The notes: generated by a model from the letters alone, not told the origin. A stretch of 64,000 bases of DNA from Dehalococcoidia bacterium (GCA_963667465.2 CAXXDN010000002.1:480001-544000), one strand, 5' to 3'; counted from the stretch's first letter, positions 1 through 11,894 are shown. Numbers and translations: made by a program.

Positions 1-104
1 CAAGGTGAAAGGTGAACGGCGTCGACGTCTTCCACCCGAACACCGGCGAGGTGCGCAGCGACGGCCCGGAGGGCATCGCCTGCTGGTTCATCGACACCGA
101 CTAC
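1..104 (+). pseudogene. Fragment of the C-terminal region of a site-specific DNA methyltransferase (type III Mod-like)
   Basis: Reads VNGVDVFHPNTGEVRSDGPEGIACWFIDTDY, recalled from the C-terminus of large Mod-like MTases. Homology breaks at ~104 and the start is cut by the window edge. Confidence 0.6.
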
Positions 105-487
105 CGGTTGAAGTCAGTGGCGTGAGCCTCGTAGTTGAAGGCGCAGGCGATGAGCACGTCGAAGCCAGCGTCGGCGGCCTCGCGGGCGGCTTCGACGAGG
201 TCCGGCCGCGACACTGTGCCGAACTCCGGCCCGATGAAGATGCCGGCGCGCTTCTCGGCGCCCGTGCCGTTGGAGCCGGCGCCGTTCTCGGCGTAGCGCC
301 CCTCGGCGCAGACCATCTCGCCCGGCCACGGGGTCACAGAGGAGAACTCGATGCGGTCTTCCTTGTGCGCCTGCTGGACGCCGGCGGTCTGGAGGTGCTC
401 GATGATCGTCGAGCCAAAGTCCTTCGGCTCGAGGTACGTGGGCGAGCGCTCGGCGACGCCGTCGATGAGCTCGTCGTCCTGCTCGTC
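105..487 (-). pseudogene. Second, inverted fragment of the same DNA methyltransferase family
   Basis: Minus strand reads DDELIDGVAE...LQTAGVQQAHKEDRIEF...WPGEMVCAEGRY...KRAGIFIGPEFGTVSRPDLVEAAREAADAGFDVLIACAFNYEAH. No proper start, truncated at both ends. Confidence 0.6.
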
Positions 488-697
488 GTGACGCCGCCGC
501 GTACCGGCGAGCGCACGCTCGTCGCCGTCGAGAACCTGCTCGGCTCGATCGCGCTCCCGGAGCCGTTCGCGCTGGAGATCGCCGGCGACGCCGACGGCGT
601 CTCCGTGCTGACCCGCTGCGGCGAGCGCTCGCTCGCGCGCCAGCAGCTCGAGGCCTACTACCCGCAGGCGCGCATTGCCGAACTCAGTGATGACCCG
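479..697 (+). pseudogene. Fragment resembling the N-terminus of a type IV coupling protein (VirD4/TraG-like) of Chloroflexota
   Basis: LLVVTPPRTGERTLVAVENLLGSIALPEPFALEIAGDADGVSVLTRC...QQLEAYYPQARIAELSDDP. Coding-like codon usage, no start, degenerates after DDP. Family call is from memory. Confidence 0.4.
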
Positions 698-768
698 TCA
701 CACCGCCACCGAAGCCGGCACGCGCGTGCACGCGCACATCTGCACATCAGCCTTGCCGCCCGGATCGA

Positions 769-795
769 GATTCCCGCGCTGCGCGCAGGTATGAC
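769..795. repeat. REP-like imperfect palindrome, possibly the terminator of the ABC operon
   Basis: GATTCCCGCGCTGCGCGCAGGTATGAC resembles GTCATTCCCGCG..GCGGGAATC-type REP elements and lies just past the stop at 811. Confidence 0.35.
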
Positions 796-810
796 GAGTG
801 GTTCCGTGGC

Positions 811-3747
811 TCATGTTCTGGCGAGTTGGCGCTCGATGAGGTGACGGAAGGGGCCCTCGACGTTCGATAGCTCGTCGAAGTCGCCGACTTGGACGACGCG
901 GCCCCGCTGCATCACGTAGATGCGGTCGGCTTGGCGAATCGTCGACATGCGATGCGCAATCACAATGCGAGTCGCGGCGAGCCGCTCGATGCTCCGCATC
1001 ACCTGCGCCTGACTGCGGGAGTCGAGCCAGCTGGTCGCCTCGTCGAGCCAGATGACGCGCGGATTGCGGACGAGCGCCGCGGCGATCCGGAGGCGCTGGG
1101 TCTGTCCGCCGGAGAACGTGGCCGAACCCTCGGTGACGACGGTGTAGAGCTGCATCGGCATCTGCGAGATCTCGTCCTCGATGGCGGCCTCACGAACGGC
1201 GCGCCACGCGTCTTCGATCGTGAGCTCGTCGCCCATGCCGATGATGTTGTCGAGCAGGCTTCCAGGCTGCAGTGCTCCGTCTTGCATGACCACGCCGAGC
1301 TGGCGTCGCAGCGCTTGACGATCGAGCGAGGCGAGGTCCCGACCGTCGTAGTAGATGCTGCCAGCGGTCGGATCCTCGAGCCCCAGCGCGAGCCGCATCA
1401 GCGTGCTCTTGCCCGAGCCTGACTCGCCCACGATGGCGATGAACTCGCCCGCCCGAGCGGAGATTGAAACGTCCTCGAGCAATGGCGTATCAGGCTGGTA
1501 ACGAAAGCTGACGTGGTCGAAGCGGACGTCGCCCTGTGGTGAGATCGGGGCGCCGCTGAGCGCGCCGGTCTCGGGCAGCTCGTCCAGAACTGGCTTGACC
1601 TGCTCGTAGCCGGGCAGCGCGGCGGCGATCGCTTCAAACGAGCGCCCGAGGTTGGCGGCGGCCGCGAAGAACGTCATCACGATTGCGTAAACGACGAGGA
1701 AGTCGCTGATCTGAAGAACATCGGCGTCGCGAGAGAGCGCGACTGCGAACAGCGCCGCGCCGACGAGCACGGGGGTCGCGGCGCTGAGCGAGACGAGGTG
1801 TTCGTTCAGCCGCGAGATCTGAATGCCGGCGAGATGTTGCTCACGATAGTGTCGGGCCCAGGCAGCGAAGGCCGAAGGCTCGGCGCCCGCGCCTCTGAGC
1901 TTGCTGATCCCGTTGATGAACTGAAGGAGCTCGCCGGCTAGCCGACGCTCGGCGGCGAAGCTGCGTCGTTGTGGCCGGAGTTGCCAGAGTCCGATGATCG
2001 CCGTGAGCAGCATCATCGCGACGGCCAACGCAATGCTGACCATGGCGAGCGTGACGTCGTAGAAGAAGAGAATCGCCAGTGTCGGCAGGAGGAAGACGAA
2101 CGAGAGCAACGCGTTCGCGACGACGCCCGAGATCTGGTCGCGCATGAGCTGGAACGTCGCCATGCGGATCGCGAGCTCGCCAGCGGTGAAGCGCCGGAAG
2201 AAGGTCGGTGAGAGCGTGAGGAGGCGATCCCAGACGGCAGCGCTGACACGAGCTGCGCCGCGTCCCTCGAGGCGCATCATCGAGGTGCCTTGCAGCACCT
2301 GAAACAGCACGCCCACGACACCGAAGGCGCCCAGCGCGATCATCAGTTGGAGCAGGATGTCGCCAGCGGCGGAGGCGAGCACCCAGTCGGTGAGGACGCC
2401 GACGACGATCGCTGGCGCCTGCAACAGCAACGCCGCTAGTAGTCCCGCAAGCGCGAAGCGGACGAAGCTCCCCGCGGCGCCTTGTCCGCCGATGCGGGCC
2501 AGATCAGTTGCGCCGACCGTGCGCTCTGTGGGCAACGTTGGGTAGCAAAGCCAAGCGTCGGAGTGGAGCTGGGCCGCGCGCGACTCATCCACTCGGACTC
2601 GCGCTCCGCTGGTGGCATCGATCATCCGATAGCGACCGCTCCAGTGCGGCAACAGCGCAACGGGCCGACGTTCCTCGCCGTGGAAGCCGATCATTGCGCC
2701 GCTGTCGCCGCGCCACCAGCGATCCTCCGGTTGGAGGCGCACCTGTCGGGCGCGGACTCCTGACGCGCTCAACACCGCGGCGAGCGTCGGTTCCTCGGCG
2801 ACCAAACCTGGTTGCGGAGCAGGTCGCTGGAAGCGCAGGCCTTCGTGATCGCCGATCAGCGCGAGCGCCGACATCAGCGCGGAGCCATCGTGGGCGACAG
2901 TGTCGCGCTCGCGGGCGAGAAGTTGATTGAGCCCAGCCCGAGCCTGCTCGGCGTCGCGACGACGGAGCGCCTCGCGCGCGGTCTGCTCGTTGACGACATC
3001 GGCCTGGAGCAGCAGTCGATTGAGCTGCTCGGCGCCGATTGCGAGCGCGTGGAATTCGTCCAAAGCCTGCAGCAGCCGTCCCGATTGCGCGAGCTGGCGC
3101 GATCGGAGCACTTCGAGCGCCGTCTCGGCCGAGAACGTGAGCCACGTGTCGAAGCTGAGCGGAGCGAGTCCGATGTCGTCGGGCGATGGAGTCTCCGTGC
3201 CGAGATAGGCTGCCTCACCCTGGTCGACGCCGATCCAGACCACCGCTCCGGCACGGGTCGAGAGCACGCTGTTCGCGTCTGCGTGGATGGGGGAGCGATT
3301 CGCGGGGTCAACGACAAGCGTCGGACGTGGTCGAGGATCGATTCTCACCGCCACGGCGCTGCCGATCGCGCTGACCCAGCGGTCGACCTGGTCAGCGAGC
3401 TCATCCGCGAACTCGCGTGCCGCGAGCGCCGATCTCCGCAGCTTGGCCAAACGCGCGCCTGGCAGGCCCTTGGCAATGGCTACCAACGGCGTGCCGTGCG
3501 AGCCGATTCCGAAGAGCAGCTGTCCCGCCTCGGCTCGAACGATGTGTCGCGCCGACGAACTGGTGAGACCGTCCGCTTGCTCAAACAGAAACACGTCGAC
3601 CGCACCCTCGAGCACGAGGTAGGCGACTGACGGATCGCCGAGTGTGATCGGATGGTTGGCGGCGCTCGCGACCGCCTCACCCTCGCTGAGCGCGAAGCTC
3701 ACGAGTCGGGATTGCTCACGAGCATCGGTGGTTTGGTGAGTCGTCAT
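811..3747 (-). CDS. NHLM/NHLP bacteriocin-system ABC transporter, permease/ATPase subunit with N-terminal cNMP-binding-like domain
   Basis: 978 aa. YLVLEGAVDVF cNMP-like N-terminus; family motif GVRARQVRL..RWWRGDSGAMIGF; Walker A GESGSGKST; FSGGQ; WLDEATS; IAHR. Overlaps the upstream gene by ATGA. Confidence 0.9.
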   Translation of the reverse strand: MTTHQTTDAREQSRLVSFALSEGEAVASAANHPITLGDPSVAYLVLEGAVDVFLFEQADGLTSSSARHIVRAEAGQLLFGIGSHGTPLVAIAKGLPGARLAKLRRSALAAREFADELADQVDRWVSAIGSAVAVRIDPRPRPTLVVDPANRSPIHADANSVLSTRAGAVVWIGVDQGEAAYLGTETPSPDDIGLAPLSFDTWLTFSAETALEVLRSRQLAQSGRLLQALDEFHALAIGAEQLNRLLLQADVVNEQTAREALRRRDAEQARAGLNQLLARERDTVAHDGSALMSALALIGDHEGLRFQRPAPQPGLVAEEPTLAAVLSASGVRARQVRLQPEDRWWRGDSGAMIGFHGEERRPVALLPHWSGRYRMIDATSGARVRVDESRAAQLHSDAWLCYPTLPTERTVGATDLARIGGQGAAGSFVRFALAGLLAALLLQAPAIVVGVLTDWVLASAAGDILLQLMIALGAFGVVGVLFQVLQGTSMMRLEGRGAARVSAAVWDRLLTLSPTFFRRFTAGELAIRMATFQLMRDQISGVVANALLSFVFLLPTLAILFFYDVTLAMVSIALAVAMMLLTAIIGLWQLRPQRRSFAAERRLAGELLQFINGISKLRGAGAEPSAFAAWARHYREQHLAGIQISRLNEHLVSLSAATPVLVGAALFAVALSRDADVLQISDFLVVYAIVMTFFAAAANLGRSFEAIAAALPGYEQVKPVLDELPETGALSGAPISPQGDVRFDHVSFRYQPDTPLLEDVSISARAGEFIAIVGESGSGKSTLMRLALGLEDPTAGSIYYDGRDLASLDRQALRRQLGVVMQDGALQPGSLLDNIIGMGDELTIEDAWRAVREAAIEDEISQMPMQLYTVVTEGSATFSGGQTQRLRIAAALVRNPRVIWLDEATSWLDSRSQAQVMRSIERLAATRIVIAHRMSTIRQADRIYVMQRGRVVQVGDFDELSNVEGPFRHLIERQLART

Positions 3748-5960
3748 TGGGACTGCACCAGTTGGGCGTAGATGCCGTCGCGATCGGCGATCAGGTCCTC
3801 ATGCACGCCACGCTGCACTTCGCGACCCTGATCGAGCACGATGATCTGGTCGCAGTCGCGGATCGTGCTGAGTCGGTGCGCCACGATCAGGCAGGAGCAG
3901 CCGCGGCGGCGCAGTGCGTCGTCGATCCGCTGCTCGGTGACTGCGTCGAGAGTGCTCGTTGCCTCATCCAGGAAGAGCAGCGACGGTCGGTTGACGAGCG
4001 CCCGCGCGATCTCGAGGCGTTGGCGCTGTCCGCCACTGAAGTTCCGTCCGCCTTCCTGGACATGGGCGTCGTAGCCACCGCTCCGACCGACGATCTCCTC
4101 GTGGATCATGGCGTCGCGAGCGGCGGCGACCATATCGGCTTCAGCGATGGCAGCGTTCCACATCTTCAGGTTGTCGCGGATGGTTCCGTCGAAGAGCGCG
4201 ATCTGCTGGTCGACCGTCGCCAGAGACGCAGTCAGGACGGAGCGTGGAACATCGCGCATGGGCACGCCGTCGAAGTGGATCTCGCCCGACCAGAGGGTGT
4301 ATTCGCCAGTCAGGAGTCGCAGCAGGGTCGATTTGCCGGAGCCGGTTGGTCCGACGATGGCGACCCGCTGACCGGGCTCGATTGTGAGGCTGACGCCGTC
4401 GATCAGCGGGTCGGCGTTACGTCGGTAGCCGAAGCGGACATCGCGCAGCTCAAGTCGGCCCGCGAGTCGGAGCCGACCGTTGAGGCTGGCCACCGCGCCG
4501 TCCTGACGCTCCCGCTGCGACGACTCGGCGGCGGTGAGCGCTACGTCTTCCTCGGCGCCAAGGATGTCGGCGACGCGTTGGAGGTCGGCCTCGAGCAGCT
4601 GGAAGGAGTCGGCGAACTGGACGAAGCGTCCGATCGGTGCGAGGAAGTTGCCAGCCAACACGTAGACCGCAATCAGCTCACCGATCGTGAGGTCGCCCTC
4701 GATCACGCGCCAACCGCCGAGTCCGAGCACGGCCATTCCGCCCATGAGCAAGAACAGTCGCGGCAACGCCGCATTGACGTAGCCAAGCTCGACGAAGCGC
4801 TGTCGGGCTGCCAGTTCCCGCGCCTGGTAACCGCTCCAGCGAGCAAAGAAGTCGTTCTCGGCAGCGGTGGCGCGGAGCGAGTCAATCTGTCGCAGTCCGG
4901 CTGTCTCGATCCCGAAGAGCAACGCCTGCTCGCGACGTAGCTGTCGATTCTGGTCCAGCCGACGCTGACTCAAGACGCGCGCCACGAGCACATTACCAAC
5001 GGCAATCGTGAGCACGACCAAGCCGATCAGCGGGTCATAGACGACGAGCAGCGCAAACAGGAGAGCGCTCATAATCAGCTCGACGACCACACCCACGAGC
5101 TGTTGCGCAGCGCCTGCGGCGATCTGATCAACGAGGCTGAGTCGGGCAGCGAGCTCCCCGGCGAATCGATGTGCGAAATACTGTATGGGTAGTCGGAAGA
5201 GTCGCCAGAGCAGTCGCTGCGACTGGGTCACGGCGAGCTGGATCGTGATCTTGCGCAGCATCACCTGTTGCAGCCACGTGAGCACGTAGACCGTGAAACC
5301 AGCGAGCACCATCGCGCCGACAATCCAACCTCCCCAATCGCGCTGACCGCCGATGAGGACGTCGTCGACGAAGATGCTCAGAAGGATCGGCAGCGCGAGC
5401 GCCGGGATCGCGAGCAGCAGACCGGCCAGCGTGACATAGGCCAGCGCGCCCTGAGCCTCCCGCAACCAAGGCCAGAGCGCGCGCCAAATGTTGGGCGGCT
5501 CGCCACCGGGACAGAACGATTCCGTTGGCTCGGCCGTCAGGACGATTCCAGTGAACGCCTCGCTGAAGGTCTCGCGGCTCACCGTGCGTCGGCCGTTGGC
5601 GGGATCGTTGAGGTGGAAGCGATCCTCAGACATCCCCTCTAGCACGAGGAAATGGTTGAACTCCCAGAAGAGAATGGCGGGAAGATTGACCTCACTGAGT
5701 GACTCCACATCCTTGCGCCAACCGCGGATACGGAGGCCGTAACGCTCACCGGCGCGAACAATGCCCGCGGCATTGGAGCCGTCGCGGCTGACGCCGCAGG
5801 CCTCGCGCAGCTCCTCAAGCGGGACCCAACGTCCGAGGTGCGCGAGGACAATCCCGAGCGAAGCCGCACCGCATTCGGCTGCCTCAAGCTGCGGGATAAT
5901 CGGCGTGCGCAACCGACGTCGGCGGAAGGATGGCCAGCCTGGTCTGGAGAGGATCGCCAC
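3744..5960 (-). CDS. NHLM/NHLP bacteriocin-system peptidase-containing ABC transporter (C39 peptidase/permease/ATPase)
   Basis: RTPIIPQLEAAECGAASLGIVLAH..LEELREACGVSRDGS with catalytic Cys; WEFNHF His; LNDPA Asp; GPTGSGKST; FSGGQRQRLEIARAL. GTG start at 5960 preceded by GGAG. Confidence 0.92.
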   Translation of the reverse strand: MAILSRPGWPSFRRRRLRTPIIPQLEAAECGAASLGIVLAHLGRWVPLEELREACGVSRDGSNAAGIVRAGERYGLRIRGWRKDVESLSEVNLPAILFWEFNHFLVLEGMSEDRFHLNDPANGRRTVSRETFSEAFTGIVLTAEPTESFCPGGEPPNIWRALWPWLREAQGALAYVTLAGLLLAIPALALPILLSIFVDDVLIGGQRDWGGWIVGAMVLAGFTVYVLTWLQQVMLRKITIQLAVTQSQRLLWRLFRLPIQYFAHRFAGELAARLSLVDQIAAGAAQQLVGVVVELIMSALLFALLVVYDPLIGLVVLTIAVGNVLVARVLSQRRLDQNRQLRREQALLFGIETAGLRQIDSLRATAAENDFFARWSGYQARELAARQRFVELGYVNAALPRLFLLMGGMAVLGLGGWRVIEGDLTIGELIAVYVLAGNFLAPIGRFVQFADSFQLLEADLQRVADILGAEEDVALTAAESSQRERQDGAVASLNGRLRLAGRLELRDVRFGYRRNADPLIDGVSLTIEPGQRVAIVGPTGSGKSTLLRLLTGEYTLWSGEIHFDGVPMRDVPRSVLTASLATVDQQIALFDGTIRDNLKMWNAAIAEADMVAAARDAMIHEEIVGRSGGYDAHVQEGGRNFSGGQRQRLEIARALVNRPSLLFLDEATSTLDAVTEQRIDDALRRRGCSCLIVAHRLSTIRDCDQIIVLDQGREVQRGVHEDLIADRDGIYAQLVQSQ

Positions 5961-5965
5961 GGCCG

Positions 5966-6478
5966 TTACTCCAGCCCGAGTGGAGCGGCGCTGATCACGG
6001 CGATCAGTCGAATCGGCGATTCGCGGCTGGTAACGATGCGCAGGTGGCAGGTGTCGCCGTCGCGCCACGCTTCCGACGGCGCGTCCGACAGGCTGACTTG
6101 GATCAGTGGTCGGCGCTCGTTGGCGTCCGAGGTCTGGATTGCGACCTGGGAAACCTGACCAGCGAGCGCTCTGTCGGAGCCAACGCGGCTGACTCGCGCC
6201 GACATCCCGACCGCGACCCGTCGCGCGTCGGCGGTGGAAAGTTGCGCCTCAGCGGCGGGCTCTCCGGCCGGGGTTGAGACGAGGACGCAGGGCGCGGAGA
6301 GCCCGCGTTCGATCGTGCCAAACACAGCCCAGAGCAGGACGCCAACCATCGCGCAGCCGAGCATCGCCAAGAAAAGCCACTCGTGCGGAGCGGTAATGCG
6401 GAGCAAACCATCGATCGGTTCGCTGCGTCCGCGTCGGGCGAAGGCTTCGTCGCGATACAGCCGCCGACGCTCGGACAT
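5966..6478 (-). CDS. Short NHLM-system secretion (membrane fusion/HlyD-like) protein lacking the coiled-coil hairpin
   Basis: N-terminal LYRDEAF..EPIDGLLRITAPHEW plus one TM helix, and C-terminal GDTCHLRIVTSRESPIRL, match the ends of NHLM secretion proteins. Only 170 aa. GGAGG SD upstream. Confidence 0.75.
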   Translation of the reverse strand: MSERRRLYRDEAFARRGRSEPIDGLLRITAPHEWLFLAMLGCAMVGVLLWAVFGTIERGLSAPCVLVSTPAGEPAAEAQLSTADARRVAVGMSARVSRVGSDRALAGQVSQVAIQTSDANERRPLIQVSLSDAPSEAWRDGDTCHLRIVTSRESPIRLIAVISAAPLGLE

Positions 6479-6737
6479 CGCAGAACACCCTCCGCCAGCT
6501 CAAGTCAGGAGCCGAGCTTGGGTCAGGCTAACGCGCTGATCGAGAACGCTATGCGTCGCTGTAGCGGAAACGGCAAGTTTCCCAGGCCATACGGATCTCT
6601 GTAGGTGACGTCCCGTCTTGGGCCTCGGCGCGCGATGCTCAAAGGTAGGGCTCGACGGGACCTGGAGGGCTCGCGGTCGTCGGCCTTCGGTTCATCGACC
6701 GCTCGGTCATGGCCATACCCTGCTGGACTTCAATGTG

Positions 6738-6917
6738 CTACGTCTTGTTCGACGATGATCCGCTGCCCGCGTTGTGATACGTGTGTGACGACGCAGGCGA
6801 GCTTGCCTTGCCGGCGGCGCTGATCTGATTCAGCTCCTCAGCGCTGAGCTCGTCGACGTTCGCGGCAACGGCTTCCTTGGCCTGGTCCCTGGTTGCTGCG
6901 TCAGTCTGCTTTGCCAT
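6738..6917 (-). CDS. Precursor peptide B (59 aa), double-glycine-type leader
   Basis: MAKQTDAATRDQAKEAVAANVDELSAEELNQISAA-GKASSPASSHTYHNAGSGSSSNKT. AGGTG SD before the ATG at 6917. Leader is paralogous to peptide A. Confidence 0.85.
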   Translation of the reverse strand: MAKQTDAATRDQAKEAVAANVDELSAEELNQISAAGKASSPASSHTYHNAGSGSSSNKT

Positions 6918-6967
6918 ACTGCACCTGTTCCCGAACACTGACCACCCGTTGGGAACCGGATCGTGCC

Positions 6968-7141
6968 CTAGTCGATCGTTGCCTGCCACGGCTGCTGCGC
7001 GTTGTTGTAGGAGCTGCGCTTGCCGGCGCCCGTGCCACCGCTGACGTCTTCAAGCTCCTCGGCGCTGAGCTGCTCATCAACCCGAGCGGCGACGGTTTCC
7101 TCGGCTTCGTCCTTGGTTGTCGCGTCAGTCTGCTTTGGCAT
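6968..7141 (-). CDS. Precursor peptide A (57 aa, not in the ORF track), double-glycine leader
   Basis: Hand translation: MPKQTDATTKDEAEETVAARVDEQLSAEELEDVSGG-TGAGKRSSYNNAQQPWQATID*. Canonical LSxEELxxVSGG motif; AGAGGTGA SD. Confidence 0.9.
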   Translation of the reverse strand: MPKQTDATTKDEAEETVAARVDEQLSAEELEDVSGGTGAGKRSSYNNAQQPWQATID

Positions 7142-7164
7142 GCCTCACCTCTTGTCGAGCCCGA

Positions 7165-7192
7165 ATCGTATCAGTCCGAATCAGGTTGTCAA
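7165..7192 (-). promoter_or_regulatory. Sigma70-type promoter of the peptide/export operon
   Basis: Minus strand TTGACA-N16-TACGAT with extended -10 TG, ending 23 nt upstream of the peptide A ATG. GATTCGG occurs twice, in the spacer and overlapping the -10. Confidence 0.75.
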
Positions 7193-7289
7193 TACGCAAC
7201 TGGCGCAAAGCCGGATGTCGGCCTCCACGACGGGACGCACCATCCGGGCGATGCGCCCGCGCCGGGCCCTGATGCCCCGCAGGACGCGC

Positions 7290-8082
7290 CCCGGTAATGC
7301 AACGCCACCTGGATGCCGTAGTCCACCGTGAGACTGATGATGAGTATCGGGATGATCACCGAAATGCCGCTCGGCCGGCCGAGGAGGCCGAGCCCGTTCG
7401 GCCCCAGCCAACCCTCCGCGCCGACGACCCACACGATGGCCATCAGCAGGCCTGTGAGCGAAAGCACCACGTCCGATGGCGACCTGAGGAAGAGAAACAT
7501 CAGAACCGCGATCAGCAGAAATGATGCTCCGATGAGCGGGGTGATGTCCTCCCGGTACGACCGCTGATACTCGTCCTCGATCACCGCCTGGGACACACTG
7601 CTCACGAGCAGCGGGCTGGTTTCGCCAGCCACGATCTCGTGAATCGTGCGCTCAGCGTCCTTTATTCGCTCGTCGCCGGTGTCTCGGAGGCGGATCGCGG
7701 CGATCGCGACCGGTGTGCCGTCGGTGTCGGTTCCGGTCAGCGAGTTGAGAGCGCCCTCGATCTCGGGAACGCTGCGTACGGCGTCAATCCGTTCCTGTGA
7801 GAGCGACTCGAGACCGTCTGCCCCGAGCACGGATTCGATGATCAGAGAGGGTGCGGCGATCGGGTCGGTTGGCGCGAACAACTCCGCCAGCTCGGGGTCG
7901 CTCGCGATCTCCGCAATCAGGCCGGACATCTGCGAGAGTCCGTCGGGGGTCAGCGCCTCCCCGCGGAAGAGCAGCGTGACCACGTTGATCTCGCCCGACT
8001 CTCCGAAGAGCTCGCCGATTTCGTCCAGTGCCCTGGCGACAGCATTGTCGCGGGGAAAGTACCCATCCGTCTCGTCGAGCTC
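7290..8082 (-). pseudogene. Internal fragment of an MMPL/RND-family transporter
   Basis: GYFPRDNAVARALDEI..., FLRSPSDVVLSLTGLLMAIVW, IPILIISLTVDYGIQVALHYR. No own start and TM1 missing; homology ends abruptly after HYR. Confidence 0.75.
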
Positions 8083-8263
8083 AGCGCGTAGCTCGCGCTC
8101 GTCGCCGCCGTGGCCGCGCAGTCGCCGCCCCACGCCGCCAGCTTGTGCCCGTCCGCAGCGGTCGCCGTGACCGTGACCGCAGTGCCCGCTACGTAGCCCG
8201 GTCCGGCCGGGTCCGCGCTCAGGCTCCCGCCCGCACCCGCCGCGAGCGTCAGCGTGTAGGTCG
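8081..8263. repeat. Direct repeat copy 1 (~183 bp; copy 2 at 9175-9357)
   Basis: Near-identical nucleotide sequence at an offset of 1094 bp. Confidence 0.9.
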
Positions 8264-8486
8264 CGGGTGTCGCCGTGGCGGTCGGCGTCGATGTGGCCGT
8301 CGCGGTTGCAGTCGGCGTGGGTGTCGGCGTCGCCGTGGCGGTTGGCGTCGGCGTGGCCGTTGTCGTCGGGGTCACGGTCGCCGTGTGGTCGGCGGCGACG
8401 CGCGGCGGCTCGCCGCCGCCGAGGCTCGCCGCGGCGGCCACGGCCAGCGCGAGCACCACGATCGCCGCCAGCGCGCGCCCGCTCAC
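8082..8486 (-). pseudogene. Truncated secreted surface protein (signal peptide, TP/TA linker, divergent InlB-B-like bacterial repeat)
   Basis: GTG overlaps the LRR gene stop (GTGA). MSGRALAAIVVLALAVAAAAS signal, TPTA repeats, YTLTLAAGAGGSLSADP...WGGDC, then a break into MMPL sequence. Confidence 0.7.
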
Positions 8487-10237
8487 TTGCCCCCGCCCGC
8501 GCGCCGCAGCGACTTCACGATCGCGTCGAGGATCGCGCCCACGTCGCGCCCGCCCTCGCTCGCCTGCGCGGCGTCGGCCGCTACGCCGGGCCGCCAGCGT
8601 CCAGAGGGCGTGAGCGTGGTGGTGTTGATCTCCTGGTGCCAGCCGCTCGCCACGTCCTCGAAGCTCACGTAGGCCTCGGCGTTGACGTAGCCCCAGCCCA
8701 CGTAGCGCAGGCGCGTGCCCGCGGGCACGTCGATCACGGCCCCGTCGCCGATCTGCCAGGCGCGCCCGCCCTCGATCACGTTGTCCGGATACAGCGTGGG
8801 GATGCCGCCCCCGCCGATGAAGGCGGGGCTGCCCTCGACCGCCGCGGAGGGGCTGCCCGCGAGCGTCCCGGCGACGGCGCGCAGCTGCCAGTGGTGGGCG
8901 TGGCGCACCCCGCCGGGGTTCAGCCCGCTCACGCGATGGCTGCGCGTCGCCGCGCCGCTGCCGGGCACGTCGGTCCACGCCCCCCAGGGCTTGAGCTCGT
9001 ACCGTTGCAGGCGCAGCCGGTACTGCCACTTGGTGACGCCCGCGGCGTCGCCCGTGGGGGTCCACTCGAGCAGCACCTCGCCGGCGTTGCCGGTCGTCAC
9101 GGCGAGCAGCACGGGCGCGGCGGGCGGGCCCAGCGCGGCGAAGCTCGCCGACACCGTGCGGTCGCCGTCCAGCATCAGCGCGCAGCTCGCGCTCGTCGCC
9201 GGCGTCGCCGCGCAGTCGCCGCCCCACGCCGCCAGCTTGTGCCCGTCCGCAGCGGTCGCCGTGACCGTGACCGCCGCGCCCGCGACGTAGCCCGGTCCGG
9301 CCGGGTCCGCGCTCAGGCTCCCGCCCGCACCCGCCGCGAGCGTCAGGGTGTAGGTCGTGGCCGTCGCCGTGGCGGTCGGGGTCGGGGTGGCAGTCGCCGT
9401 AGCAGTCGCCGTAGCAGTCGCCGTCGCGGTCGCAGCCGGCGTGGGGGTGGGCGTGGCGCAGTCCTTGATCGAGAGCTTCCCGAGGTCGTTGCTCGACACC
9501 TTGCGCAGCACGGGCGGCACGCAGCCCGTGAAGGCGTTGCCCGAAACCTTCAACGTCGAGAGCCCATCCAGGTTCGCGGGCAGGCTGCCGCTCAGCTTGT
9601 TGCCGTTCACGGTCAGGTGCCGCAGCGAGGCCGACTGACCCAGTTCCTCTGGGATGGACCCGCTCAGCTGGTTGCCGGCCAGGTGCAGCGCCCACAGCGG
9701 TGGGCCTGACCCCAACTCCTTCGGAATGCCCCCCGTGAGCTGGTTGCCGGTGACGTTCAGGTAGCTGAGCGCCTTGAGTTGCGCCCACTCCTTCGGAATG
9801 CCGCCCGTGAGCTGATTGTCGTTCAGGGCCAAGCTCACGAGAGCGGTCAACTGCGAGAGGCTGGGGGGCAGCGTGCCCGCAAGCCCCCTGTCGATGAGGT
9901 TCACGGTCGTGACCCGCCCCGACTGCACGTGCACGCCGTCCCAGCTCGCGATCGCGAGGTCGGGGCTCCAGTTGAGGGCGTCGGTGACCGTCCCCTCGAG
10001 GTCAGCCTGGACGGCCAGCAGCACGGTGCAATCCGCCACCAGGCCGGGATTGCTAGTCGGGTCGGGGACCGCCCCGTCCGTCGCGCAACCGTCGTCCGCG
10101 GCGTCCAGTGCCCCGCGCACGCCCGCGATCGTCAGCGCCAGCGTGAACAGCACCGCCAGTGCCAGCGTCAGGCCCGCCCCCACCGTGCCCACCAGGCCCG
10201 CGCCTATGAGTCGTCCGCCCCACCGTGTCCGCAGCAT
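8483..10237 (-). CDS. Secreted/membrane-anchored plant-type leucine-rich-repeat protein with TA linker, bacterial repeat and FN3-like domain
   Basis: Cys-capped N-terminus (CATDGAVPDP..GLVADC..LNWS...WDGV); repeats of LxLxxNQLTGGIPKE; poly-(AT) linker; FN3-like VLLEWT..WQYR..W..VPGS..SHRVSGL. GGAG SD before the ATG at 10237. Confidence 0.85.
   Translation of the reverse strand: MLRTRWGGRLIGAGLVGTVGAGLTLALAVLFTLALTIAGVRGALDAADDGCATDGAVPDPTSNPGLVADCTVLLAVQADLEGTVTDALNWSPDLAIASWDGVHVQSGRVTTVNLIDRGLAGTLPPSLSQLTALVSLALNDNQLTGGIPKEWAQLKALSYLNVTGNQLTGGIPKELGSGPPLWALHLAGNQLSGSIPEELGQSASLRHLTVNGNKLSGSLPANLDGLSTLKVSGNAFTGCVPPVLRKVSSNDLGKLSIKDCATPTPTPAATATATATATATATATPTPTATATATTYTLTLAAGAGGSLSADPAGPGYVAGAAVTVTATAADGHKLAAWGGDCAATPATSASCALMLDGDRTVSASFAALGPPAAPVLLAVTTGNAGEVLLEWTPTGDAAGVTKWQYRLRLQRYELKPWGAWTDVPGSGAATRSHRVSGLNPGGVRHAHHWQLRAVAGTLAGSPSAAVEGSPAFIGGGGIPTLYPDNVIEGGRAWQIGDGAVIDVPAGTRLRYVGWGYVNAEAYVSFEDVASGWHQEINTTTLTPSGRWRPGVAADAAQASEGGRDVGAILDAIVKSLRRAGGGK
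9175..9357. repeat. Direct repeat copy 2 (bacterial repeat domain inside the LRR gene)
   Basis: Matches 8081-8263 with a few substitutions. Confidence 0.9.
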
Positions 10238-10460
10238 CGGCTCCCGCCTCCGCCAAGCTCCGCAGCACCGCAGGCCTATGCCGCCTCTTGCGAACATAGG
10301 GCAGCGCTCGCAGATCAGCGCGCTCGTACTCGACGCTGCCGAACGAATGCTGTTGTACGGGGCGCCTCCCGCGGGTCGCACCCCCATGATCGCAGCAACT
10401 CATCCCTCTGGTGAGTTGTTCAGACCCATCCCTAAGGGTGTTGCGCCCTATGATCGGTGC

Positions 10461-11894
10461 ATGAGGTGGCGGGGCTCGCAACAAGAGTGGCCTGCGGTTG
10501 GCGCGGAGCCGGACGACGTTCCGCTCCTCGCGAAGCGCTGCCCGCGCTGCGAGGCGCAGATGCCGGCCGACAGCCGGATCTGCCATCAGTGCCTGACGAG
10601 CCTCAGCGACATCGCCCCGACGCCATTCGAGCGACCGCCGGAGGAGGCGGAGCCGACTGGCCTGCGGCGCTACCTGCGCCGCGTGCAGCGGCGCCGCGTG
10701 CTCCAGTTGCTCCTGCTCGCGATCGTCGCCGGGTTCGTCTACGTGCAGTGCTTCTGGCCCGCGCCCTCGCGGGACGAAGCGAGCGGTTCGCGATCGCTCG
10801 CGTCCGGAGCGGCCGTCTGGGCCGCGCCGGGCGCCGATGCCGGCGCGCGGCGTGTCAGCGAGGCGAGTCCGCCGCTCCGCGGAGAGACCGCCTGGACCCG
10901 CACGCTGGACTCGGAACTGACGGCGGCGCTCGTCACCGACGGGATCGCGATCTACGCCGCCCACAAGGACGCGCTGCTGGTCGCCTACGCGACCGCCGAC
11001 GGCAGCGAGCTCTGGAGATTCCCGGTGCCGGGCCAGCTCGACGACTCGCCCGTGGTCGCCGGTGACACCGTCTACGCCTCGTTGCGCAGCGGCTGGCTGG
11101 TCGCCCTCGACGCGCGCAGCGGCCGCGAGCGCTGGAGGAGCGACACCGGCCAGGACATCCTCAGCGGCCCGATGGTCGTGGACGGCGTCGCCTGGGTCGG
11201 CGGGCGCGGCGTGATGCTGGCCTACGACGCCGAGACCGGCGAGCTGCTGGGCGGCGACCAGTCCGGCGACGACGTGCTCGCGCTCGGCGGTCCCGTCCTC
11301 GGCGACGAGCGGGTCATCCTTCGCTCCTGGCGGCGCCTGCACTTCTTCGACATCGAAACCGGCCGCCACGAGTTTTTTGCGCGCTTCTTCCGCGCGAGGT
11401 ATGCGGCGGCGGGCTACGGCGTCGTGATCGGCGTCTCCGACCTCTGGGTCCTCGCCTTCGACGAGGACGTCGGCCAACCGTGGTGGGAGGGGCTGCGCAT
11501 GGCGTGGTTCTGGGCGGACCTCTGGGGGGTGGCCCCGCCGACGCCCGACCAGCCGTTCCGCTGGGCAGCGACGCTCGAATGCGCCTCGCTCGCGCCGGTG
11601 CTGCAAGCCGAGCAGGTGATCCTCTCGTGCGAGGGCGGGCGCGTGTTCGCGGCCTCCCTCGAGGACGGGCGCATCCTCTGGGAGCGCGAGCGGGATCCGC
11701 TCGCCGATGCGCCGGCGCTGATCAGCGACGGCCTGCTGCTGATCGAGGAGTCCGCCTTCGTCGTCCTCGATCCCGCAACCGGGGAGGAGATCGACCGGCG
11801 GGATCTCGACGGCGTGTCGATCTCGCAGGCGCTGGTCACCAGCGAGGGCGTGTACCTCGTGACCGCGGACGGCGAGCTGCGCGCGCTGCGCTGA
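10461..11894 (+). CDS. PQQ-like/BamB-type beta-propeller membrane protein with N-terminal zinc ribbon
   Basis: CPRC..CHQC, one TM helix, repeated LVAxDAxxGxExWR propeller blades. TATGAT lies 6 nt before the ATG. Confidence 0.8.
   Translation: MRWRGSQQEWPAVGAEPDDVPLLAKRCPRCEAQMPADSRICHQCLTSLSDIAPTPFERPPEEAEPTGLRRYLRRVQRRRVLQLLLLAIVAGFVYVQCFWPAPSRDEASGSRSLASGAAVWAAPGADAGARRVSEASPPLRGETAWTRTLDSELTAALVTDGIAIYAAHKDALLVAYATADGSELWRFPVPGQLDDSPVVAGDTVYASLRSGWLVALDARSGRERWRSDTGQDILSGPMVVDGVAWVGGRGVMLAYDAETGELLGGDQSGDDVLALGGPVLGDERVILRSWRRLHFFDIETGRHEFFARFFRARYAAAGYGVVIGVSDLWVLAFDEDVGQPWWEGLRMAWFWADLWGVAPPTPDQPFRWAATLECASLAPVLQAEQVILSCEGGRVFAASLEDGRILWERERDPLADAPALISDGLLLIEESAFVVLDPATGEEIDRRDLDGVSISQALVTSEGVYLVTADGELRALR

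What the first reader, a model, noticed from the sequence alone, without database searches (positions are those of the whole stretch)
811..7192. Self-contained peptide export operon: two novel double-glycine precursors plus an NHLM cassette, with no maturation enzyme
Seen: a TTGACA-N16-TACGAT promoter (extended -10) drives peptide A (6968-7141, below the ORF-track cutoff) and peptide B (6738-6917). A secretion protein, a C39-peptidase ABC transporter with intact Cys/His/Asp and a second ABC transporter follow. Both flanks are broken genes, so the whole unit is visible. The two leaders (35-36 aa) are clearly paralogous: M[PA]KQTDA[TA]T[KR]D[EQ]A[EK]E[TA]VAA[RN]VDE(Q)LSAEEL. Their cores diverge and contain no Cys. 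Known: NHLM cassettes usually go with longer NHLP/Nif11 leaders and with cyclodehydratase, LanM or radical-SAM enzymes. Inference: this is an undescribed short-leader peptide family in Chloroflexota, either unmodified bacteriocins/signals or RiPPs matured in trans.
Basis: partly seen in the sequence, partly recalled or inferred. Interest (0 to 1): 0.85.

Follow-up and report, generated by a model that had tools for sequence, protein, structure and literature searches.

The report
Mobile enzyme-free peptide export cassette
A 6.4-kb gene cassette that makes, cuts and exports a few short water-soluble peptides, with no modifying enzyme, has hopped between distantly related sponge-type Dehalococcoidia; the machinery is of a known kind, but the peptides match no curated family.

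Summary
On the minus strand, a sigma-70-like promoter (7192-7165) precedes two paralogous ~58-aa precursor genes. A 170-aa HlyD remnant, a C39-peptidase ABC exporter (TIGR03796, above cut-off) and a second ABC exporter (TIGR03797, above cut-off) follow. Both flanks are gene fragments.

- A third precursor gene (pepC) sits between pepB and the HlyD gene. It is destroyed here by two deletions but intact in relatives.
- pepB carries Ala-Ala-Gly, not Gly-Gly.
- The cassette is 89-91% identical in DNA in genomes whose rpoB loci are only 71-76% identical. It lies in a different context each time, and its G+C content (65%) differs from the host's (70.7%). It is therefore horizontally mobile.

The peptides match no Pfam or NCBIfam model above cut-off. 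A profile search of 1.84 billion proteins found about seven related clusters. Cores are cysteine-free and strongly hydrophilic. SPASM, YcaO, PqqD and MNIO maturases were not found in any carrier genome searched.

Best reading: unmodified exported peptides of unknown role. Enzyme-free three-gene cassettes with non-NHLP precursors are already described in cyanobacteria, so this is a new member of a known kind. Interest is moderate.

The parts
7165..7192 (-). sigma-70-like promoter with extended -10, at the upstream edge of the cassette
   Evidence: the only such site in 500-7600, 10 of 12 matches, TG present; partly conserved in L023 and L024, not in L025.
6968..7141 (-). pepA: 57-aa precursor with a 36-aa acidic leader ending VSGG and a 21-aa hydrophilic Cys-free core
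   Evidence: Core motifs (QQPWQATI and others) are kept even where the leader diverges. Leu/Leu/Val stand at -12/-7/-4. dN/dS is 0.17-0.39.
6738..6917 (-). pepB: 59-aa paralogous precursor; the leader ends ISAA(G); Ser/Gly/His-rich Cys-free core
   Evidence: All 5 orthologues read have AAG here, while the distant B-type P0010 has GG. dN/dS is 0.33-0.60.
6639..6716 (-). remnant of pepC, the third precursor gene, destroyed by a 13-nt and a ~112-nt deletion
   Evidence: pepC is intact (57 aa) in L023, L024 and L051 and N-terminally shifted in L025. The remnant is identical in three further runs.
6479..6638 (-). conserved non-coding spacer before the HlyD gene, with a Shine-Dalgarno-like GGAGGG
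   Evidence: Conserved in sequence; only 2 of 40 predicted pairs covary, so no RNA structure is claimed.
5966..6478 (-). mini-HlyD: 170-aa membrane-anchored adaptor remnant that lacks about 110 residues present in relatives' HlyD
   Evidence: It matches TIGR03794 positions 6-48 only (32.4 bits) plus a weak HlyD_3 hit. It is 170-182 aa in all cassette copies. dN/dS is 0.20-0.54.
3744..5960 (-). ABC1: C39 peptidase, permease and ATPase (PCAT), 738 aa from GTG 5960
   Evidence: dN/dS is 0.05-0.13. It is the only family member above cut-off in the genome.
811..3747 (-). ABC2: second half-transporter, 978 aa, with an N-terminal CRP-like effector-domain fold and a C39-like, probably non-catalytic, domain; its start overlaps the ABC1 stop by 4 nt
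   Evidence: TIGR03797 720.2 bits against 709.4; model of mean pLDDT 58; Foldseek E about 2e-4 to CprK/CAP and 1.4e-3 to 3zua. dN/dS is 0.10-0.13.
770..7215 (-). the whole mobile cassette; the limits are where similarity to the other carriers starts and stops
   Evidence: DNA identity is 89-91% in four genomes. G+C is 65.6% against a host mean of 70.7%, which puts it in the lowest 2.1% of 2955 windows.
7189..8133 (-). upstream flank (not part of the cassette): truncated MMPL/RND gene
101..337 (-). downstream flank (not part of the cassette): fragment of a site-specific DNA methyltransferase gene

Best explanation
This is a horizontally mobile peptide-secretion cassette of about 6.4 kb that carries no maturation enzyme. 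One promoter drives the precursor genes (three ancestrally, two intact here) and then three export genes.

Each precursor has a short acidic helical leader with hydrophobic residues at -12, -7 and -4 and small residues at -2/-1. The C39 domain of ABC1 binds that helix and cuts after Gly-Gly in pepA and, by register, after Ala-Ala in pepB. ABC1, probably paired with ABC2 and helped by the membrane-anchored mini-HlyD, then pumps the core out.

The products are most likely unmodified linear peptides of 21-27 residues. They are very hydrophilic and cysteine-free. Because they lack any hydrophobic or amphipathic stretch, they probably do not act as membrane-permeabilising bacteriocins. I read them as extracellular interaction factors between co-resident microbes or with the host: signals, or peptides taken up by their target.

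Shown: the genes, the domains, the conservation, the mobility, and that the usual maturases were not found. Inferred: cleavage, export, the ABC1-ABC2 pairing, the lack of modification, and the biological role.
For: Machinery:
- ABC1 and ABC2 exceed the curated cut-offs of TIGR03796 and TIGR03797.
- The C39 domain is closest to the solved double-glycine protease 6mpz (E 9e-40), with the three motifs aligned.
- The leaders carry Leu/Leu/Val(Ile) at -12/-7/-4. These are the positions LahT recognises (PMC10885120, passages).
- ABC1 is the only PCAT in the genome. No NHLP-leader gene was found in any of the 4 carriers searched, against 25 in congener G013. The pep genes are therefore the only evident substrates.

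Selection: dN/dS is 0.05-0.13 for the ABC genes, 0.20-0.54 for mini-HlyD and 0.17-0.74 for the peptides. A-type and B-type core motifs persist in distant members whose leaders have diverged.

No maturase:
- None lies within 10 kb in L023, L024, L025, L051 or L052.
- SPASM, YcaO and PqqD were each found in 0 of 5 genomes (G000, G123, G124, G125, G013).
- MNIO/DUF692 was found in 0 of 5 (G000, G123, G124, G125, G281).

Mobility:
- Cassette DNA identity is 88.7-91.2% between genomes whose rpoB loci are 70.7-75.6% identical. G123 and G124 are 95.8% identical in rpoB but only 90.3% in the cassette.
- The flanks differ in every genome.
- The peptides were found in 1 of 99 genomes of the host's order and 3 of 401 genomes sampled from the class.
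- Cassette G+C is 65.1-65.6% everywhere, against 70.7% in G000 and 61-64% in the other flanks.

A trans-acting enzyme would have to be waiting in each recipient.

Cores: GRAVY is -0.7 to -1.5, 57-74% of residues are S/T/N/Q/G/P, and there is no Cys.
Against: - No expression data: no RNA run is listed for this DNA.
- No product has been seen.
- Only a handful of maturase families were searched. P450, ATP-grasp, glycosyl-, methyl- and acyl-transferases, non-SPASM radical SAM enzymes and unknown families were not.
- The LanC-like search is uninformative because its control rang nowhere.
- G000 is 93.6% complete, so a gene could be missing from the assembly.
- Tight conservation of core motifs with aromatic, Asn, Ser and Thr residues would also suit an enzyme recognition site.
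- Ala-Ala is not among the canonical GG/GA/GS sites (PMC10885120, passages), so processing of pepB is uncertain.
- No immunity gene, receptor or regulator is in the cassette, so the role is a guess.
- Signs of decay exist: pepC is lost here, the pepA start codon is changed and pepC frameshifted in L025, and one copy in G281 has an internal TAG.
Confidence: 0.55

Rival explanations
1. The peptides are RiPP precursors modified by an enzyme encoded elsewhere in each genome before ABC1 cleaves and exports them.
For: The transport genes belong to families named for NHLP-type RiPP systems. Core motifs are more constant than leaders across distant members, as expected if an enzyme or a fixed product shape constrains them. 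A congener (G013) pairs the same kind of cassette with 25 NHLP-leader precursors. Stand-alone LanM enzymes working with group V clusters are reported in Prochlorococcus (PMC3140520, passage).
Against: There is no Cys. SPASM, YcaO, PqqD and MNIO were each found in 0 of 5 genomes searched. No enzyme gene lies near any copy. The cassette moves alone between lineages whose rpoB loci are only 71-76% identical and lands in unrelated contexts, so a partner enzyme would have to pre-exist in each recipient. G013 also lacks those maturases.
Confidence: 0.22
2. The cassette is a decaying, no longer functional remnant of a larger biosynthetic cluster.
For: pepC is deleted here. In L025 the pepA start codon is ACG and pepC is frameshifted. 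G281 has copies with an internal TAG. G125 holds a partial second locus with a peptide and mini-HlyD only. The HlyD is a third of the family's length. The flanks are wreckage.
Against: All three export genes are intact in every full cassette read (six), and dN/dS is 0.05-0.13 for the ABC genes of the four compared. The short HlyD is itself conserved, even in the G370 cassette whose ABC1 is only 78% identical. pepA and pepB keep open frames, Shine-Dalgarno-like sequences and dN/dS below 1. No larger version with an enzyme was found anywhere.
Confidence: 0.1
3. The peptides are classical unmodified class II (two- or three-peptide) bacteriocins that kill by membrane permeabilisation.
For: They have a Gly-Gly-type leader and a dedicated PCAT, there are several co-encoded peptides, and there is no modifying enzyme. 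The weak best hit of pepA is to the class IIb lactobin A/cerein 7B model (E 0.012, below cut-off).
Against: Only 0-14% of core residues are V/I/L/M/F/C and GRAVY is -0.7 to -1.5. No amphipathic or hydrophobic stretch is evident. No immunity gene is in the cassette, although it spreads to naive hosts. TIGR03949 scores 15.3 bits against a cut-off of 21.5.
Confidence: 0.08

Closest known systems
Three-gene NHLP/NHLM bacteriocin export cassette (NCBIfam TIGR03794, TIGR03796, TIGR03797; the original description by Haft and colleagues, 2010, is recalled, not read)
   Same: There is a C39-ABC and a second ABC, both above the curated cut-offs, with a HlyD-type gene in front and precursor genes adjacent.
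   Different: The precursors are not NHLP or Nif11. The HlyD is a 170-aa remnant far below cut-off. No cyclodehydratase, LanM or radical SAM gene lies nearby, and none of the maturase families searched was found in the genome.
Cyanobacterial 'group V' bacteriocin gene clusters (Wang, Fewer, Sivonen 2011, PMC3140520; passages read)
   Same: They have HlyD, a short-type C39 ABC transporter and an additional ABC transporter with a CAP_ED-type domain and no peptidase. They have several tandem double-glycine precursors and no LanM, and 16 of 37 precursors are typed 'Other'. The N-terminus of ABC2 here gives CRP/CAP-like fold hits.
   Different: The phylum differs (Chloroflexota, class Dehalococcoidia). 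The peptide family differs. The adaptor is miniaturised. Recent transfer between distantly related lineages is demonstrated here. The supplementary tables of that paper, which list its precursors, could not be seen.
LahT/LahA system and the LahT150 double-glycine protease (PDB 6mpz; PMC10885120, passages read)
   Same: It is the closest solved relative of the C39 domain (E 9e-40). One PCAT serves several precursors with a similar leader and diverse cores. The recognition residues at -4/-7/-12 are present here.
   Different: LahA peptides are lanthipeptide precursors with Cys and a LanM. Here there is no Cys and no synthetase was found.
ComC/ComAB and other unmodified double-glycine peptides of Gram-positive bacteria (PMC10885120, passages; PMC7595303, search listing only)
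   Same: They are short leaders with an unmodified core, cleaved and exported by a PCAT. ComA structures match the C39 domain at E 1e-17.
   Different: Those loci come with a sensor kinase and regulator, or with immunity genes. None is in this cassette. The cores here are far more hydrophilic.
NHLP-precursor arrays with the same type of cassette in a congener (G013)
   Same: The genus is the same. The cassette has the same three-gene export set, and its ABC1 is 54% identical. The cores are short and Cys-free, and there is no maturase nearby.
   Different: The leaders are long NHLP ones (TIGR03793 above cut-off in 24 of 25 matches). The HlyD is 299 aa. The cores are Trp/Tyr-rich and there are 25 precursors in two arrays.

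Membership tests
TIGR03796 NHLP-family export ABC, peptidase/permease/ATPase subunit | whole-protein score above the curated cut-off (853.3 bits) | tested here: met
   920.7 bits, model positions 1-710
TIGR03796 / Peptidase C39 | C39 domain with the Cys, His and Asp motifs | tested here: met
   PF03412 E 1e-33. The motifs align to 6mpz. That these are the catalytic residues is recalled.
TIGR03797 NHLP export ABC, permease/ATPase subunit | score above the curated cut-off (709.4 bits) | tested here: met
   720.2 bits, residues 289-975
TIGR03794 NHLP bacteriocin system secretion protein (HlyD) | score above the curated cut-off (156.2 bits) over the ~421-position model | tested here: not met
   32.4 bits on positions 6-48 only. 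About 110 residues present in the HlyD of G013 and G039 are missing.
NHLP leader family (TIGR03793) | match to the ~77-position nitrile-hydratase-like leader | tested here: not met
   No hit at E <= 1 for pepA or pepB. There were 0 matches in G000, G123, G124 and G125 against 25 in G013.
Nif11-type leader (Pfam/NCBIfam models) | match to the Nif11 domain | tested here: not met
   Not among the hits at E <= 1 in either library
Class IIb bacteriocin, lactobin A/cerein 7B (TIGR03949); CTB family (NF038167); HaaA cyclophane RiPP (NF041708) | score above each curated cut-off (21.5, 32 and 55 bits) | tested here: not met
   15.3, 15.5 and 13.3 bits for pepA; nothing for pepB
Double-glycine-type PCAT substrates (functional class) | GG, GA or GS at -2/-1 | tested here: inconclusive
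   pepA and pepC have GG. pepB has AA followed by G in 5 of 5 orthologues. AA is not a listed motif (PMC10885120, passages).
Double-glycine-type PCAT substrates (functional class) | hydrophobic residues at -4, -7 and -12 of a helical leader | tested here: met
   L/L/V in pepA and pepC. L/L/I in pepB if cleavage follows AA. Helicity was not tested.
Double-glycine-type PCAT substrates (functional class) | cleavage and export by the cognate transporter | not testable with these tools
   This needs an in-vitro cleavage or a secretion assay.
Cyanobacterial group V bacteriocin cluster (PMC3140520) | HlyD + short C39 ABC + second ABC with a CAP_ED-type domain and without peptidase + precursors, no LanM | tested here: met
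   The CRP/CAP-like fold of ABC2 residues ~10-130 rests on a modest model (mean pLDDT 58, Foldseek E about 2e-4). Pfam cNMP_binding itself did not hit.
RiPP | a post-translational modification enzyme acting on the core | tested here: inconclusive
   None is adjacent in any of the six further cassette loci read. SPASM, YcaO, PqqD and MNIO were each found in 0 of 5 genomes. The LanC-like control was silent. Many enzyme families were not searched.

The most novel reading that the evidence does not exclude
The cassette is a self-sufficient, freely exchanged 'peptide broadcasting' module of sponge-associated Dehalococcoidia. Unrelated symbiont lineages acquire the same three hydrophilic peptides, which serve as a shared signal among co-resident symbionts or towards the host. 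If so, this is a non-bacteriocin, non-RiPP use of a PCAT system with a stripped-down adaptor suited to a cell without an outer membrane. Its repeated landing beside restriction-modification and toxin-antitoxin wreckage leaves open a link to defence islands.
Probability: 0.12. Interest if true: 0.7.

Novelty: new member of a known kind. Interest (0 to 1): 0.42.

Why it matters
Dehalococcoidia of sponges are uncultured, and almost nothing is known about what they secrete. Here is a compact cassette whose products can be predicted to the residue, which makes it directly testable by mass spectrometry or by synthesis.

It has clearly been passed around between distant lineages, which argues that it pays its way. 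It also shows that NHLM-type exporters are used with short-leader, cysteine-free, apparently unmodified peptides outside cyanobacteria. Genome-mining tools keyed to maturases or to NHLP/Nif11 leaders will miss such loci.

It is not a new mechanism.

Tried and rejected
- JGI metagenome scan with the A-type alignment: 588 pattern matches, none confirmed.
- Sequencing runs: 16 holders in 5 studies, no RNA holder listed. Nothing can be said on expression.
- RNA structure in the spacer 6479-6638: consensus fold with only 2 of 40 pairs covarying, so none is claimed.
- Terminal direct or inverted repeats at the cassette ends: none found.
- No integrase or transposase was seen in the ORF lists of the flanks, but these were not searched systematically.
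- Empty site in congeners: a DNA search with 7230-11000 found only paralogous MMPL genes (best 79%) and dispersed repeats, and no syntenic empty site.
- Downstream flank against the flanks of the other loci by blastx and tblastx: no hits.
- ABC2 N-terminus: no PDB sequence hit. Atlas scores of 0.84-0.87 are a lead only. There is no sequence similarity between the ABC1 C39 domain and the corresponding ABC2 region. The C39-like call for ABC2 therefore rests on one weak fold hit (rank 50).
- Earlier findings of this scan: nothing by place, sequence or words.
- Cluster look-up of seven family members: all unnamed, from ENA or NCBI assemblies.
- Literature: four term searches listed no paper on these peptides or on double-glycine peptides of Dehalococcoidia. 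These are word searches and cannot find a sequence.
- Considered and dropped as a specific lead: pepA as a cyclophane (HaaA-like) precursor, because the score is far below cut-off and no SPASM enzyme was found.
- Not run: complex prediction, the second structure job and two protein searches, because the expected answers would not have moved the odds.
Full report
WHAT IS THERE

All genes lie on the minus strand of the window. They are preceded by the only sigma-70-like site found in 500-7600: TTGACA, 16 nt, TACGAT at 7192..7165, with TG before the -10. In order, the genes are:

- pepA (6968-7141, 57 aa) and pepB (6738-6917, 59 aa).
- A 25-codon remnant of a third precursor gene, pepC, at about 6639-6716.
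- A conserved 160-nt spacer.
- A 170-aa HlyD-like gene (5966-6478).
- ABC1 (3744-5960 from a GTG; 738 aa as in relatives).
- ABC2 (811-3747, 978 aa), whose start overlaps the ABC1 stop by four bases.

ABC1 and ABC2 exceed the curated cut-offs of TIGR03796 (920.7 against 853.3 bits) and TIGR03797 (720.2 against 709.4 bits). The HlyD-like protein reaches only 32.4 bits against 156.2 for TIGR03794, and only on model positions 6-48.

The C39 domain of ABC1 (PF03412, E 1e-33) is closest to the solved double-glycine protease domain 6mpz (E 9e-40). The Cys, His and Asp motifs align.

- 7189-8133 gives one partial MMPL hit (positions 3-227 of 333). Full-length paralogues in the genome give two hits each.
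- 101-337(-) is a 78-aa piece 68% identical to plasmid site-specific DNA methyltransferases.

The stretch 6300-7400, including the pepC remnant, stands without any difference in contigs of three further runs from two other studies. It is therefore not an assembly artefact.

THE SMALL GENES ARE REAL

- pepA has seven homologous clusters at 77-91% identity among 5.8 billion proteins.
- A scan of species-representative genomes found the whole cassette in three more genomes: two Dehalococcoidia MAGs and one labelled Candidatus Spongiisociaceae (L023, L024, L025).
- A sample of 401 genomes of the class added two more, G281 and G370.

In L023, L024 and G281 the cassette holds three different precursors (A, B, C), each of 57-59 aa. 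In the window, a 13-nt and a ~112-nt deletion have removed the Gly-Gly site and most of the core of pepC.

Pairwise dN/dS (Nei-Gojobori):

| Gene | dN/dS |
|---|---|
| ABC1 | 0.05-0.13 |
| ABC2 | 0.10-0.13 |
| mini-HlyD | 0.20-0.54 |
| pepA | 0.17-0.39 |
| pepB | 0.33-0.60 |
| pepC | 0.22-0.74 |

The counts for the peptides are small.

THE FAMILY

Neither peptide reaches the cut-off of any Pfam or NCBIfam model.

A profile of 14 members was searched against 1.84 billion representative proteins and gave 15 hits at E <= 0.001. I read seven as family members (P0002, P0008-P0013). The other eight are unrelated proteins or peptides that share only the generic ELSxEELxxVSGG-like stretch.

The distant members keep the A-type core motif (QQ.WQATI) or the B-type motif (SSHTYHN) while their leaders diverge.

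G370 carries a more distant cassette, with ABC1 78% identical. It has three other short-leader precursors on the opposite strand and one orphan elsewhere.

All eight cores examined are cysteine-free. Their GRAVY is -0.7 to -1.5, 57-74% of residues are S/T/N/Q/G/P and 0-14% are V/I/L/M/F/C.

The leaders carry Leu, Leu and Val/Ile at -12, -7 and -4. LahT reads these positions (PMC10885120, passages). In that register pepB would be cut after Ala-Ala. It has AAG in 5 of 5 orthologues, while the distant B-type P0010 has GG. Ala-Ala is not a canonical site.

MOBILITY

The cassette is 88.7-91.2% identical in DNA among G000, G123, G124 and G125. The rpoB loci of G000 and the other three are only 71.9-75.6% identical. 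G123 and G124 are 95.8% identical in rpoB but only 90.3% in the cassette.

Similarity begins about 45 nt upstream of the -35 hexamer and stops 30-40 nt after the ABC2 stop codon. Beyond those points every genome differs:

- A methyltransferase plus a DEAD/MZB helicase in L024.
- A 1775-aa PPDK_N/Calx-beta protein in L023.
- SRP54 in L051.
- An MMPL fragment and a methyltransferase fragment in the window.

The peptides were found in only 1 of the 99 genomes of G000's order. TIGR03796 was above cut-off in 3 of 61 relatives.

Cassette G+C is 65.1-65.6% in every host. G000 averages 70.7%, which puts the cassette in the lowest 2.1% of 2955 windows. The other hosts' flanks are 61-64%.

No terminal repeats were found.

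NO MATURASE

No enzyme gene lies in or beside any copy read. Searches of five genomes gave 0 of 5 for each of:

- SPASM, YcaO and PqqD/RRE (G000, G123, G124, G125, G013).
- MNIO/DUF692 (G000, G123, G124, G125, G281).

The LanC-like search also found nothing, but its control rang nowhere, so it says nothing.

No NHLP-leader gene was found in the four carriers searched. The congener G013 has 25 NHLP-leader genes in two arrays, one of them beside an NHLM cassette of its own (ABC1 54% identical, HlyD 299 aa).

THE ACCESSORY PROTEINS

The mini-HlyD keeps the N-terminal tail, the membrane helix and a C-terminal beta-rich part. It lacks about 110 residues that the HlyD proteins of G013 and G039 have. 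It is 170-182 aa in all cassette copies, including the diverged G370 one. The short form is therefore maintained, not a local accident.

A model of ABC2 residues 1-430 was built from six sequences (mean pLDDT 58). It is confident only for residues ~10-130 and ~290-420.

- Foldseek matches the first part to CRP/CprK/CAP effector domains (E about 2e-4).
- It matches the second part, weakly, to the C39-like domain of HlyB (3zua, E 1.4e-3, rank 50).

This agrees with the cyanobacterial description of an additional ABC transporter that has a CAP_ED domain and no peptidase (PMC3140520, passages). Pfam cNMP_binding itself did not hit.

HOW IT MOST LIKELY WORKS

The steps in this paragraph are inferred. 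The promoter transcribes the precursor genes and, through the conserved spacer, the export genes. The C39 domain binds the leader helix and cuts at the small-residue pair. ABC1, probably with ABC2, exports the core. The mini-HlyD assists in a cell that is thought to lack an outer membrane (recalled for Chloroflexota, not tested).

I put 0.55 on the products being unmodified linear peptides. The reasons are that the maturases searched were not found, the cassette travels alone, and the cores have no Cys. Their extreme hydrophilicity argues against membrane-active bacteriocins. The role (signal, target-imported antagonist or host-directed factor) is open.

Rivals and their weights:

- Trans-modified RiPPs: 0.22.
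- A decaying remnant: 0.10.
- Classical class II bacteriocins: 0.08.

COMPARISON AND NOVELTY

The export machinery and the gene order are those of the NHLM three-gene cassette and of the cyanobacterial group V clusters. In group V, 16 of 37 precursors are neither NHLP nor Nif11 and no LanM is present (PMC3140520, passages).

Short Gly-Gly leaders with PCATs are widespread (PMC10885120, passages).

What is new:

- The peptide family itself, which is small, unnamed and known only from a handful of assemblies.
- Its occurrence in Dehalococcoidia.
- The miniaturised adaptor.
- The clear evidence of recent transfer between lineages with highly diverged rpoB.

This makes it a new member of a known kind, not a new kind. 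Four literature word searches listed nothing on it. The supplementary precursor tables of PMC3140520 were closed and could bear on the novelty of the leader.

Noticed in passing
window 10322-10434: A stretch of about 113 nt recurs in dozens of copies (78-93% identity) in G000 and in most genomes of the genus. It looks like a MITE-type dispersed repeat (query positions 3093-3205).
   Followed up: no
window 8483-10387 (-): A 634-aa ORF with plant-type leucine-rich repeats and a Thr/Pro/Ala-rich linker. It is a eukaryote-like protein of the sort reported from symbionts. Pieces of it recur elsewhere in G000 at 86-94% identity.
   Followed up: no
L034 (G013:C1:568000-587500) and G013:C1:773.7-777.3 kb: A genome of the same genus carries 25 NHLP-leader precursor genes in two arrays, one of them next to an NHLM cassette. 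Their cores are very short, Cys-free and Trp/Tyr-rich. SPASM, YcaO and PqqD were not found in that genome.
   Followed up: partly
L037 (G125:C1:1915000-1934500), 8900-9775 (-): A second, partial locus in G125 has an A-type precursor and a mini-HlyD gene but no ABC genes. It lies beside a HigA-like antitoxin ORF; that identification is by eye and was not tested.
   Followed up: partly
L052 (G370:C1:456000-475500) 3605-10362; L053 9831-10028 (-): A diverged version of the cassette (ABC1 78% identical) has three other short-leader precursors transcribed away from the export genes, one of them with GV instead of GG. An orphan precursor lies 440 kb away next to MFS transporter genes.
   Followed up: partly
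window 1-340 and L038 11870-12125: Pieces of one DNA methyltransferase gene seem to lie on both strands here, which suggests an inversion as well as a truncation. Only the minus-strand piece was tested. The plus-strand assignment is by eye.
   Followed up: partly
L038 6324-10406 (-) (G000:C2:474324-478406): A 1360-aa secreted-looking protein with repeated Calx-beta-like modules lies just downstream of the cassette region. Similar giant proteins flank the cassette in L023 and L025.
   Followed up: no
L051 (G281) 10169-11000 (-); G281:C2:375097-375497: G281 has four tandem precursor matches, and two of them have an internal TAG in the matched frame. They could be pseudogenes or mis-framed matches; this was not resolved.
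   Followed up: no
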